A stretch of 8,331 nt of DNA, from the sequence record NZ_CP040631.1. The stretch is one strand, 5' to 3'. The number at the start of each line of letters is the position of its first letter. Positions within the stretch are counted from its first letter, which is position 1. Positions 3,001 through 6,000 of the stretch are shown here, piece after piece. A program made the position numbers. Source of the DNA: a plasmid.

Positions 3001-6000
3001 GAGGACTGATAACCCCTTTTAGCTTTTATTTTATTGTTGTATTAGTATTTCAGTCTGTGAAGATATGAGGAAATACATGGGGGCAAGAGTGCCCCTTTTT
3101 TTTGGCAAATAAAAATGGCGACCGAAACCAGCCGCCATGTCCCATGCATTTCCGCAATGGGCTTGCCAGAGCCTACGCTTGAGTTCTACAAATATAAGCA
3201 ATTCCGTTTTCTTCTGCAATTATAACGGCACAATACCGGGACAGTTTTGAGCAACTGGCTCCTGTAACTTTTTCCGGATATCTGCAAATTTGTTTTGTGA
3301 ACGGCAAAAATTCTTTGTGAACAGCACTAAGTCCATACTCTCAGAATAAAGAAGTGATTTAAACTTTTTGTTTTCGTGAAATTTTCTTCAATAACAAGAC
3401 TGCAAATGCCAAGTAATTCCAAGACATCCAACTTGAAACAGTTGTATCGAACCGGTTCAGTAGCGTCCTGAAACTGTCCATCCAAGCGTTGGTTCGTTCG
3501 ATGGAATACCTTTCAGCATATAGTTCATCATCAACAAAGATGTCATCGGCATTTTCTCTCCGTTTATTGATGCAGATGTTTGCGATGATCTCTTTTTCAC
3601 CCAGGAAACCACGTAAGACATCACAATCGAATCCGGCATCGGCATTGAGGAAAAGACCATCAACCCGGATATGGGATTTCTCAAGGTCGTTGAACATGTC
3701 ACCGATGACCTTTTCTATGTCATGTACGTCATGGTGTTCGCCAGATTTCGGAGAAGACATGGCAATCGGAAGTCCTTGCCTGTCTGTCAGGTAGAGTGCG
3801 TTGGTCGTCTTCCGTTTCTTCCGTCCCTGGTATCCGACTTCTTCACCGCCACGGAGTGCAGCCGTGTGGCTCCCGTCCAAATCCACGCTGGACATGTCCA
3901 ACTTATGGCGGTGTTTGTCAAGCAACCTGACCCACATGGATTTCCACTCGCCCGACTTGCTCCATTTGTTGTAATGATGATACACGGCACCATAGCTCAG
4001 TACCTTGCCGCTAAACAGGGCTTCCACAGGAAGGAACGCCCATTGACAACCGGTCTTCAACTTGTACAAGATGGCGTTTACCACCTCTATGAGACAACTT
4101 TGAGTGGCATAACCACGTTTTGCCTTGGAAAGATGAGGCAATATTTCATTTTTTATCGTATCTTTGTCGAGCATAGTGTACATTGGACTTTCACTATATA
4201 TGAGTTTGGTCACCATAATATAGGGAACAATTCAATTTGTACGCTGTGCTTTAACATTTTGATACGATTTTAAGAGAATGAAATAAGTTTAAATCACTTC
4301 ATTGTTTAATACTAAAGATCAGTAATATGTTCAGAGAAATGCGTCGTAAACGACAGTTGTTGCCACAAGAAGAGAGCGTGGCAATTCTTGAAAAAATGAC
4401 AAACGGGACTTTAGCTCTCCACGGAGATAATGGCTATCCTTATGCCGTTCCTCTCAGTTATTTTTATGCTGATGGCAAAATCTATTTTCATTGCGCCAAG
4501 ATAGGGCATAAGGTGGACGCTATTATGCAAAACAATAAAGTATCGTTTTGCGTTGTGGAACAAGACAATATTAAACCTGCCGAATTCACGACCTACTTTC
4601 GAAGTGTGATAGTCTTTGGAAAGGCCTATATTTTAACCGACGAAACAGAAAAACGTATGGCTATGACTTTGCTGGTGAATAAATATTCTTTCGGTGAGCC
4701 AGGTTTGTCTGATGAAATAGCCAAAAGCATCAACCATCTACTGATGGTAAAGATCGATATCGAACACATGACGGGCAAGGAGGCCATCGATTTGGTTAGA
4801 GAGAAAGAAAAGTTTTGTACTTCAGAGAAAACCTCTTGAAAAAACGATTTAGATGAGTACGTCGAGAGATTTAAGGAAAAGAGTATTTTTCTGTACTCAC
4901 TAACCCTGCGGGTAACCGCATAAGACTTTATACCGACTAATATGTACCGATAAAAATATGGCTGCAAGTTATTTCATTTGCAGCTATATTTTTGCTCGTA
5001 ATCAATAAGAAACGACAAAAAGCATTACCTTTGTAAAATGATTCAAGAGGGCTTCAAATTTTACAAGTCTTGCAAGGAGTTACAACCTTACGTCAGGTAT
5101 TATTGGGTATTCAAAAGCAATCAACCGCTGAATACCCTTACTTTTCCGATTGGCTGTCCTCAAATCATTTTCCACAAACAAACACCGCTTTACATCCCAG
5201 AATTGAAAACTGCTCAATCAGAATTTACTATTAGTGGTCAGGTAAATTATCCTTCCCATTTATATGCGAATGGTAATGTAGAAATGATTGTAGTTGTATT
5301 CCAGCCATATACCCTAAAAGCATTCTTGAACTTGCCCATATCTTTATTGCACAATCAGAAAATCACATACCCATTCCAAAACCCCGGCTTCTTTTCCTGG
5401 GCTGGTCGATTTCTTCCTCCTGTTGTTTCTTTCTCTGCGGTGCCTGGTTGATATCCGGAACTTGGGATATACTGTTTCCCTGTTGTTGGCTCTCTTCACG
5501 GCCTTGTTCCTGGTGCAGTTCCTGAAGATCCCGGCTCCATTCGGCCTTCATCTTCTCAAGCCGTTCATGGTTCACACGTTCCGCCCATTCCTTTTTCTGG
5601 AAGATTTCTTTCGGGCTTCCGTTCTTCATGGTATTGAGATAGTCGAATGTCTGTTCCGGAGCCCGGTCATACCCTGTGCGCTTATCAAATGAGGTTTCAC
5701 ACTTTCGGAAAAAATCTGTTCTGTCAAAACCGCCCTTCACGTTTCCGCAGTTCTTCTTCCCGGTGTGGTTGGTCTTTGGGCTTAGCTTCCTGGTGTTGCT
5801 CCTGTCCTTCCGGCTGACAATGATATGTGCGTGCATGTCGTACCGGTCGGCTCCCTTCCTCTCGAAATGGATTTTTCCGTAATACTCGATATCCTCTTTG
5901 TTCAGACCTTTTCCGAACCCTTCCGCATAGTGCTGCATCACATCATCACGGACATACTTTCTCATGGCTTCAGCCTGTTCCTTCTCTGTCTTGCCCATTT

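What the first reader, a model, noticed from the sequence alone, without database searches (positions are those of the whole stretch)
3349..4839. IS5-family element placed 26 bp upstream of a nim (5-nitroimidazole resistance) gene, with an outward promoter candidate in the IS end
The 170-aa product begins MFREMRRKRQ and has the Nim split-barrel fold. Nim genes are normally silent unless an insertion sequence supplies a promoter. Here a roughly 950-bp IS5-family element with a DUF4096-type transposase ends at 4300, and TTTG ... TAAGTTTA boxes lie within its last 45 bp reading toward nim. The Nim sequence appears diverged from the NimA/NimB sequences as I recall them, but the allele cannot be assigned without a search. 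The IS is much shorter than the 1.3-1.6 kb elements I remember being reported upstream of nim genes (IS1168/IS1169/IS1170), so this may be a different IS-nim combination.
Basis: partly seen in the sequence, partly recalled or inferred. Interest (0 to 1): 0.7.

Follow-up and report, generated by a model that had tools for sequence, protein, structure and literature searches.

The report
Known ISBf6-nimE metronidazole resistance plasmid
The window is a complete copy of a well-described 8.3-kb Bacteroides plasmid (pBF388c / pBFS01_2 type), in which the insertion sequence ISBf6 sits 26 bp in front of the metronidazole-resistance gene nimE, so the finding is real but already known.

Summary
A 950-bp IS5-family element (3351-4300) has perfect 14-bp inverted repeats and a 285-aa DUF4096/DDE transposase on the minus strand. 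It ends 26 bp upstream of a 170-aa nim gene (4327-4839).

Both proteins are exact matches to database entries named "ISBf6 family transposase" and "5-nitroimidazole reductase NimE". The window has the same length (8331 bp) as the published nimE/ISBf6 plasmids pBFS01_2 and PHL2737 plasmid 1, which are relatives of pBF388c (Soki 2006, GenBank AM042593). The IS-nim combination is therefore already known.

The proposed outward promoter is present: TTTG at 4258-4261, 22 nt, then TAAGTTTA at 4284-4291. It is a weak consensus match and nothing here shows that it is the start site. The literature I could read states that nimE is transcribed from ISBf6, but gives no mapping.

Two results go beyond the finding. 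IS-less contigs carry nimE next to a full-length AraC-type gene, which is truncated in the plasmid. ISBf6 plus nimE also occurs as two insertions of different length (2008 bp here, 1647 bp in chromosomal contigs). Each is flanked by a 3-bp duplication relative to sequenced empty sites. This suggests that ISBf6 mobilises nimE as a transposition unit.

The parts
3351..4300 (-). ISBf6, an IS5-family insertion sequence of 950 bp
   Evidence: It is 100% identical to ten chromosomal or metagenomic copies, all 950 bp and bounded GAAGTG...CACTTC. Six of those ten are flanked by a 3-bp target duplication. It is 98.1% identical to the IS in CP103261.
3351..3364 (.). Terminal inverted repeat at the end distal to the transposase start (IRR by convention)
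   Evidence: Perfect 14-bp inverted repeat GAAGTGATTTAAAC.
4287..4300 (.). Terminal inverted repeat at the end next to the transposase start (IRL), facing nimE
   Evidence: Perfect complement of 3351-3364.
3359..4216 (-). ISBf6 transposase, 285 aa
   Evidence: Pfam DUF4096 plus DDE domains. NCBIfam IS5 family transposase, 127 bits against a cut-off of 110. [quoted passage not shown]
4258..4291 (+). Candidate outward promoter of Bacteroides type: TTTG (4258-4261), 22 nt, TAAGTTTA (4284-4291)
   Evidence: Motif scan: 5 of the 6 specified positions of TAnnTTTG are met, and the spacing is 1 nt longer than the usual 19-21. Its function is inferred, not shown.
4120..4141 (+). Terminator-like hairpin followed by a T-rich tail, inside the IS on the nimE strand and upstream of the candidate promoter
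   Evidence: Consensus scan. It might limit read-through from the plasmid genes upstream. This was not tested.
4301..4326 (+). 26-bp spacer between the IS and nimE, derived from the donor locus
   Evidence: It is identical in the IS-less contigs L118, L121 and L116, which read ...AATAAGC ATTGTTTAATACTAAAGATCAGTAAT ATG.
4327..4839 (+). nimE, 5-nitroimidazole reductase, 170 aa
   Evidence: NCBIfam NimABCDEF, 308 bits against a cut-off of 260. Pfam Pyridox_ox_2, 82 bits. The exact sequence is named NimE. It is 77% identical to NimA.
4951..4994 (+). 19-bp-stem hairpin with an A-run before and a U-run after; the likely nimE terminator
   Evidence: Predicted free energy -22 kcal/mol, z-score -7.45 against shuffled sequences.
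5038..5358 (+). First 107 codons of an AraC-type regulator (DUF6597 domain), cut off at 5358. The ORF runs on into backbone sequence as far as 5451.
   Evidence: Pfam DUF6597. A full-length 273-aa gene (DUF6597 plus HTH_18) follows nimE in the IS-less contigs L111, L118 and L121-L123, and homology with the window stops exactly at 5358.
3351..5358 (.). 2008-bp insert relative to empty sister plasmids (ISBf6, nimE and the truncated AraC gene); a putative transposition unit
   Evidence: Empty sites in pRGF00020, pBF13402b and pBACSA03 read GAATAAAATCAC. In the window the insert is bracketed by AAA on both sides.
3348..3350 (.). AAA, left copy of the putative 3-bp target duplication
5359..5361 (.). 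AAA, right copy of the putative 3-bp target duplication

Best explanation
The region is the known ISBf6-nimE resistance module on a pBF388c / pBFS01_2-type Rep3/MobB plasmid of Bacteroides. ISBf6 is a 950-bp IS5-family element. It lies with its transposase-proximal end 26 bp upstream of nimE, and its transposase gene points away from nimE.

The IS separates nimE from its original upstream DNA. nimE is most likely transcribed from an outward-reading promoter in the last ~45 bp of the IS (TTTG, 22 nt, TAAGTTTA), with a predicted start near 4297-4300. NimE, a PNPOx-like flavoprotein, then reduces 5-nitroimidazoles to non-toxic amines and lowers metronidazole susceptibility.

Shown here: the identity of the IS, the gene and the plasmid, their geometry, and the donor arrangement. 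Taken from the literature: the resistance phenotype, nimE expression, and the statement that nimE is transcribed from a promoter in ISBf6. Inferred: the exact promoter boxes and the start site.
For: The NimE and transposase sequences are exact matches to database entries named NimE and ISBf6 transposase (Q4LAM3_BACFG).

The family scores are above the curated cut-offs.

The window is 8331 bp and circular in content: pPDQ1c aligns across the window ends. It has the same size as pBFS01_2, which is 99.87% identical to the AM042593 pBF388c fragment, carries nimE at 100% identity with ISBf6, and comes from a strain with metronidazole MIC 64. It also has the same size as PHL2737 plasmid 1.

A pBF388c transconjugant of strain 638R has MIC 8 ug/ml, and the authors state that nimE is transcribed from a promoter in ISBf6. 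nimE mRNA was measured in six ISBf6-nimE strains.

All ten of the longest contigs that carry the exact NimE sequence have the ISBf6 transposase gene just upstream.

The promoter-like boxes are at the stated positions.

The same IS end faces erm(F) in CP103261. It also faces outward-reading genes in 7 of 8 uninterrupted chromosomal copies.
Against: The promoter match is imperfect: TAAGTTTA rather than TAnnTTTG, with a 22-nt spacer. Comparable matches occur 12 times in the window.

No transcript-start data were available, because the primary paper (Soki 2006) is not in the library.

Plus-strand plasmid genes lie upstream, so read-through transcription is not excluded.

In some metagenome samples the last 21 bp of ISBf6, including the TAAGTTTA box, are replaced by IS942. 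nimE can therefore be driven by other elements.

The abstract of one paper states that metronidazole MICs do not depend on nim expression level (table).
Confidence: 0.85

Rival explanations
1. nimE is transcribed mainly by read-through from plasmid promoters on the plus strand (rep, the bfmA-like gene, ORF 1877-2407), or from another site in the IS, and not from the TTTG/TAAGTTTA boxes.
For: All ORFs upstream of the IS from 1 to 2407 are on the same strand as nimE. The promoter match is weak. In pPDQ1c the deletion brings nimE to within ~370 bp of rep.
Against: A terminator-like hairpin lies on the plus strand inside the IS at 4120-4141. The 1647-bp IS-nimE unit occurs in a chromosomal site with different upstream genes yet keeps the same IS-nimE junction. 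The literature attributes transcription to ISBf6.
Confidence: 0.12
2. The ORF is a generic PNPOx-family protein outside the Nim clade.
For: Pfam only assigns the broad PNPOx-like families.
Against: It scores 308 bits against the NimABCDEF equivalog model, cut-off 260. The identical sequence is named NimE. It is 77% identical to NimA. Plasmids carrying it transfer reduced metronidazole susceptibility.
Confidence: 0.01
3. This is a previously undescribed IS-nim combination.
For: The IS is shorter than IS1168, IS1169 and IS1170, and its transposase shows no significant similarity to the IS1169 transposase. PLSDB holds no full-length copy of the plasmid.
Against: ISBf6-nimE was described on pBF388c and has been re-found in Denmark, Canada, the Netherlands, India and elsewhere. 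The exact NimE sequence is indexed in 3130 blocks of the assembly collection.
Confidence: 0.02
4. ISBf6 and nimE reached the plasmid by separate events (IS insertion plus illegitimate recombination), not as one IS-driven transposition unit. On this view the AAA on both sides is chance microhomology.
For: Neither right-hand boundary has an IR-like sequence: 4 of 14 and 6 of 14 matches, which is typical of random positions. The target is an A-run.
Against: Two different inserts (3351-5358 and 3351-4997) both start exactly at the IS terminus. Both are bracketed by a 3-bp repeat, which is the size ISBf6 itself generates, relative to sequenced empty sites. The chance of a 3-mer match is about 0.018 per event.
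Confidence: 0.3

Closest known systems
ISBf6-nimE on B. fragilis plasmid pBF388c (Soki et al. 2006, GenBank AM042593), and its sequenced 8331-bp relatives pBFS01_2 and PHL2737 plasmid 1 (CP040631)
   Same: The IS, nim allele and plasmid length are the same, and pBFS01_2 shares the Rep3/MobB-type backbone genes. The NimE and transposase protein sequences are identical to the named entries.
   Different: Nothing material differs. I could not align the window to those records directly, because they are not in the searchable collections. Identity rests on the exact protein matches, the equal length and the published descriptions.
IS1168-nimA (pIP417), IS1170-nimC (pIP419), IS1169-nimD (pIP421), IS1186-nimB
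   Same: The logic is the same: an IS immediately upstream of a nim gene, and the papers attribute nim expression or activation to the IS.
   Different: The IS is different: 950 bp, and its transposase is unrelated to that of IS1169 at BLASTP level. The nim allele also differs, at 77% identity to NimA.
pPDQ1c of Phocaeicola dorei (NZ_MW388914, 5364 bp)
   Same: It is 99.8-100% identical to the window over the backbone and nimE.
   Different: It lacks window 1162-4126 and so keeps only the last 174 bp of ISBf6 in front of nimE. Its NimE differs by 2 residues.
ISEcp1-blaCTX-M transposition units (from my own knowledge, not tested here)
   Same: One genuine IS end combined with variable, poorly conserved distal ends moves an adjacent resistance gene. 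The IS's usual target duplication is generated and the IS supplies the promoter.
   Different: ISEcp1 belongs to the IS1380 family, makes 5-bp duplications, and carries the passenger gene downstream of its transposase gene. Here the IS is IS5-family, the duplication is 3 bp, and the passenger lies upstream of, and divergent from, the transposase gene. The mechanism is inferred from sequence only.

Membership tests
Nim (NimABCDEF) 5-nitroimidazole reductases | Score above the curated equivalog cut-off of NCBIfam NF000261 | tested here: met
   308.1 bits against a cut-off of 260, covering model positions 1-153 of 153.
Nim (NimABCDEF) 5-nitroimidazole reductases | PNPOx-like split-barrel domain | tested here: met
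   Pfam Pyridox_ox_2 at 82 bits and PNPOx_N at 47 bits. By sequence it is related to PDB 2fg9, '5-nitroimidazole antibiotic resistance protein', E 1e-8. The fold itself was not modelled.
NimE allele | Sequence identity to the reference NimE | tested here: met
   The exact sequence is named 'nitroimidazole resistance protein NimE' / '5-nitroimidazole reductase NimE'. pPDQ1c NimE is rated 98.82% to the reference by AMRFinder and differs from the window protein at exactly 2 of 170 residues.
NimE allele | Confers reduced metronidazole susceptibility | not testable with these tools
   From the literature only: a 638R(pBF388c) transconjugant has MIC 8 ug/ml, and strain S01 carrying pBFS01_2 has MIC 64.
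IS5 family / ISBf6 | DDE transposase of IS5 type | tested here: met
   NF033580, 127 bits against a cut-off of 110, covering model positions 12-258 of 258. Pfam DUF4096, DDE_Tnp_4 and DDE_Tnp_1. The catalytic residues were not examined individually.
IS5 family / ISBf6 | Terminal inverted repeats | tested here: met
   Perfect 14-bp inverted repeats at 3351-3364 and 4287-4300.
IS5 family / ISBf6 | Short target-site duplication flanking the element | tested here: not met
   This copy is flanked by AAA on the left and ATT on the right. Six of ten other copies have 3-bp duplications: ATT, AAC, GAT, CTT, AGT and AAT. In this window the duplication (AAA) brackets the larger 3351-5358 segment instead.
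IS5 family / ISBf6 | Identity to the named ISBf6 transposase | tested here: met
IS-borne outward promoter activating a Bacteroides resistance gene | Bacteroides -33 TTTG / -7 TAnnTTTG consensus in the IS end, oriented towards the gene | tested here: inconclusive
   TTTG, 22 nt, TAAGTTTA: 5 of 6 specified positions are met and the spacer is 1 nt beyond the usual range. Twelve comparable sites occur in the window.
IS-borne outward promoter activating a Bacteroides resistance gene | Transcript start mapped inside the IS end | not testable with these tools
   A secondary paper asserts it. The primary paper is not held in the library.
IS-driven transposition unit (ISEcp1-like behaviour) | The IS plus adjacent DNA is bracketed by the IS's own target duplication, relative to an empty site | tested here: met
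   Unit 3351-5358 is bracketed by AAA/AAA, with empty sites in three plasmids. Unit 3351-4997 is bracketed by ATT/ATT in L119, L120 and L129, with empty sites in L124, L125, L127, L128 and L130.
IS-driven transposition unit (ISEcp1-like behaviour) | A recognisable surrogate inverted repeat at the distal boundary | tested here: not met
   6 of 14 and 4 of 14 matches to the IR in register, which is typical of random positions. The best match within 100 nt is 8 of 14, the modal value for random windows.

The most novel reading that the evidence does not exclude
ISBf6 does more than activate nimE: it carries it. After a single insertion at an ATT 26 bp upstream of nimE in an IS-less nimE / AraC-regulator / CAT locus of a gut Bacteroidales genome, the transposase-distal IS end paired with unrelated downstream sites. 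This moved units of at least two lengths: 1647 bp into a Bacteroides chromosomal site and 2008 bp into a Rep3/MobB plasmid. Each insertion made the IS's normal 3-bp duplication. That would be ISEcp1-like one-ended mobilisation by an IS5-family element, and it would explain how nimE reached plasmids. I found no paper describing this in the searchable library.
Probability: 0.55. Interest if true: 0.4.

Novelty: already known. Interest (0 to 1): 0.2.

Why it matters
nimE on this plasmid is one of the main transferable routes to metronidazole resistance in Bacteroides, and it is often found in multidrug-resistant cfiA-positive strains. Recognising the module is useful for annotation and surveillance, but it adds nothing new.

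The modest added value lies in two side results. The first is a donor arrangement without the IS, in which nimE sits next to a full-length AraC-type regulator. The second is sequence evidence that ISBf6 and nimE travel together as a unit. If confirmed, that would mean nimE can spread to new replicons without the plasmid.

Tried and rejected
1. A search of GTDB species-representative genomes with NimE gave no hit above 77% identity, and no AraC fragment or ISBf6 transposase lay near any hit.

2. A metagenome scan for an IS-less upstream junction used the pattern D+ATTGTTTAATAC... and found nothing. The pattern was badly chosen: the base before ATT is C both at the end of the IS and in the donor sequence, so the pattern excluded the true donor.

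3. I looked for a surrogate inverted repeat at the 5358 and 4997 boundaries and found none above chance.

4. I tried to name the host of the IS-less locus. One member of the AraC protein's 90%-identity cluster is labelled Phocaeicola plebeius. However, that member sits in RteC/integrase-type mobile elements without nim, and the flanking core genes carry no names. I therefore do not assign a species.

5. The sigma-70 consensus scan gave no more sites than shuffled sequence, and it is not appropriate for Bacteroides anyway.

6. Rfam gave no matches.

7. The primary paper (Soki 2006, JAC) is not in the library.

8. I considered a simple invertible-promoter reading of the 497-bp segment upstream of nimE in the IS-less contigs. 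I dropped it as unproven, because the outer left flanks differ between the two orientations and only one form has an 8-bp inverted repeat.

Full report
**What is in the window.**
The 8331-bp window is a complete small Bacteroides plasmid.
- It starts at the ATG of a Rep3-type initiator (1-981).
- It carries iteron-like 16-23-nt repeats just upstream of that start (8181-8280).
- It carries a BfmA/BtgA-type mobilisation gene and a DUF5712/MobB relaxase gene (6259-6861 and 5363-6262, minus strand).
- It carries a YoeB/Phd-type toxin-antitoxin pair (7351-7620 and about 7620-7890, minus strand).

The sister plasmid pPDQ1c aligns without a break across the window ends, so the window is a circular permutation of a whole replicon.

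**The observation.**
An IS spans 3351-4300 (950 bp). Its terminal inverted repeats are a perfect 14 bp, GAAGTGATTTAAAC. It holds one 285-aa ORF on the minus strand (3359-4216). That ORF matches DUF4096 and the DDE transposase families, and it scores 127 bits against the NCBIfam IS5-family model, above the cut-off of 110.

Ten other copies fetched from chromosomes and metagenomes are 100% identical over the same 950 bp. Six of them are flanked by 3-bp target duplications, which fixes the ends and the duplication size.

The spacer 4301-4326 is 26 bp, and the 170-aa ORF at 4327-4839 begins MFREMRRKRQ.

**Identity.**
The 170-aa protein scores 308 bits against the NimABCDEF equivalog model, cut-off 260. 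Its exact sequence is on record as 'nitroimidazole resistance protein NimE' / '5-nitroimidazole reductase NimE'. It is 77% identical to a NimA.

The published record matches:
- Sydenham et al. describe pBFS01_2 as 8331 bp and 99.87% identical to the 1486-bp pBF388c fragment AM042593. It carries nimE at 100% identity with ISBf6, in a strain with metronidazole MIC 64.
- Eshaghi et al. describe an 8331-bp plasmid with nimE and an ISBf6-family IS5-like element upstream.
- Paunkov et al. use the pBF388c transconjugant (MIC 8 ug/ml) and state that nimE is transcribed from a promoter in ISBf6.
- Further reports come from the Netherlands, India and Hungary.

The exact NimE sequence is indexed in 3130 blocks of the assembly collection. 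In all ten longest contexts the ISBf6 transposase gene lies just upstream. The module is therefore known and widespread.

**The promoter.**
On the nimE strand, TTTG (4258-4261) is followed after 22 nt by TAAGTTTA (4284-4291). Both lie inside the IS end. Measured against the Bacteroides consensus TTTG / TAnnTTTG with 19-21 nt between (my own knowledge of Bayley et al. 2000), this is a near match, not a full one. The same relaxed rule finds 12 sites on the two strands of the window, so the motif is only suggestive.

The circumstantial support is as follows:
- The same IS end faces erm(F) in CP103261, 204 bp upstream.
- Seven of eight uninterrupted chromosomal ISBf6 copies have an outward-reading gene at that end.
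- pPDQ1c has lost window 1162-4126 but keeps the last 174 bp of the IS in front of nimE.

None of this maps a transcript start. A plus-strand terminator-like hairpin at 4120-4141 argues mildly against read-through from the plasmid genes upstream.

**Where the module came from.**
Relative to three sister plasmids without nimE (pRGF00020, pBF13402b, pBACSA03), the insert is 3351-5358. It holds ISBf6, the spacer, nimE, a strong hairpin (4951-4994, z-score -7.45) and the first 107 codons of a DUF6597/AraC-type gene. The empty sites read GAATAAAATCAC, and in the window AAA stands on both sides of the insert.

A metagenome scan for the last 23 nt of the insert found contigs in which nimE is not preceded by an IS. 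So did a look-up of a 4-residue NimE variant (P0003). In these contigs nimE is followed by a full-length 273-aa AraC-type regulator, a CAT gene and ruvC (L111, L118, L121-L123).

Homology with the window runs from 4300/4301 (L118, L121) or 4307 (L111, L122, L123) to exactly 5358, at 97.3-99.2% identity. In L118 and L121 the sequence reads ...AATAAGC ATTGTTTAATAC..., so ISBf6 sits at that ATT. These contigs show the donor arrangement. The host species is not established.

**A second unit.**
Contigs L119, L120 and L129, from three samples, carry window 3351-4997 at 99.76% identity. This segment holds the IS, nimE and 158 bp of downstream sequence that includes the hairpin. The IS itself is identical. 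The four differences are the four NimE substitutions of the variant allele. The segment lies between two Bacteroides genes of a polymorphic toxin/immunity-like region.

Five other contigs hold the same two genes with an uninterrupted spacer that reads ...TTCATAT ATT GGTTG.... The occupied form reads ...TTCATAT ATT [1647 bp] ATT GGTTG....

So two inserts share the transposase-distal IS terminus and the IS-nimE junction. They end at different points (4997 and 5358), and each is bracketed by a 3-bp repeat, the size ISBf6 makes on its own. A chance 3-mer match has probability about 0.018 per event. Neither distal boundary resembles the IR.

The simplest reading is that ISBf6 moves nimE as a transposition unit, using one true end and a poorly defined second end. 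This is inference from sequence. I put it at about 0.55.

**Comparison with what is known, and verdict.**
The finding is the ISBf6-nimE module of pBF388c-type plasmids. It works like the IS1168-nimA, IS1169-nimD and IS1170-nimC pairs but uses a different, shorter IS, whose transposase is unrelated to that of IS1169 at BLASTP level.

The novelty class is 'already known'. The promoter assignment remains a candidate.

The transposition-unit evidence and the IS-less donor arrangement are the only parts I could not find described in the searchable literature. They are modest extensions of a known system.

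Noticed in passing
window 3351-5358; L119:1690-3336, L120:5025-6671, L129:1349-2995; empty sites in L124, L125, L127, L128 and L130: ISBf6 plus nimE occurs as two inserts of different length: 2008 bp in the plasmid and 1647 bp in a chromosomal site. Each is bracketed by a 3-bp repeat (AAA, ATT) relative to sequenced empty sites. 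This suggests IS-driven transposition units with no recognisable second inverted repeat.
   Followed up: yes
L118:5102-6160, L121:660-1718, L111:550-1601, L122, L123: IS-less contigs carry a nimE variant (4 aa differences) followed by a full-length 273-aa AraC-type regulator, a CAT gene and ruvC. The plasmid's truncated DUF6597 ORF is the first 107 codons of that regulator. The host species is not established.
   Followed up: partly
L118:4620-5116 compared with L122:127-624, L123 and L111: The 497 bp immediately upstream of nimE in the IS-less contigs occurs in both orientations, at 98.2% identity. One orientation puts a perfect TACCTTTG box about 50 nt upstream of the ATG. The outer left flanks differ, and only one form has an 8-bp inverted repeat (TAGTATTA/TAATACTA). 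A simple invertible promoter is therefore not shown. The ISBf6 insertion point lies 6 bp inside this segment.
   Followed up: partly
L027, L028, L029 (Logan runs SRR27430270, SRR27430192, SRR31242918); corresponds to window 4280-4314: In three samples the last 21 bp of ISBf6 (including the TAAGTTTA box) and 14 bp of the spacer are replaced by IS942 (IS1380 family, 99.4% identity). Its end then lies 12 bp upstream of the nimE ATG. I found no paper that mentions IS942 together with nimE.
   Followed up: partly
window 2448-2608 and 5359-5519; L016, L027, L028; proteins P0039 and P0045: A 161-bp direct repeat (94% identity) brackets a 2911-bp segment that contains the IS and nimE. Several contigs join 5516 to 2448 across the repeat, as expected for an excised circle or a tandem amplification of the nimE segment.
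   Followed up: partly
L001 (pPDQ1c, NZ_MW388914) compared with window 1162-4126: This Phocaeicola dorei plasmid is a 2965-bp deletion derivative of the window plasmid. Its junction shows GG microhomology. It keeps only the last 174 bp of ISBf6 in front of nimE.
   Followed up: yes
L002 (CP103261) 3468-4418 and erm(F) at 4623: A sister plasmid of 8328 bp carries ISBf6 (98.1% identity) in the same cargo slot. The same IS end faces erm(F), 204 bp upstream, instead of nimE.
   Followed up: partly
L017-L026, especially L021 (CP119600, 4062457-4068314): In 7 of 8 uninterrupted chromosomal ISBf6 copies, the gene next to the transposase-proximal end reads outward, as nimE does. One of these is an RND efflux operon that starts 65 bp from the IS end.
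   Followed up: no
L010 and L011 (GCA_021405985.1, JAHYKT010000001.1, about 376-414 kb): An isolate assembly shows several tandem copies of the whole nimE plasmid joined to chromosomal genes at an ISBf6 copy. This is either an integrated multimer or an assembly artefact.
   Followed up: no
window 1860-3350: The region between the bfmA-like gene and the IS is a mosaic. It holds a second, 79%-identical copy of the 3' end of the bfmA-like gene (2610-2831 compared with 1645-1866), a second copy of the relaxase 3' end and target site (2432-2608), and a 176-aa ORF with no family match (1877-2407). This looks like the trace of recombination between two related plasmids.
   Followed up: partly
L116:5898-6622: nimE with its IS-less upstream region (window 4300-4948 plus 76 bp further upstream) also sits in a Mob_Pre/resolvase element alongside acetyltransferase and MatE genes. 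nimE therefore circulates without ISBf6 as well.
   Followed up: no
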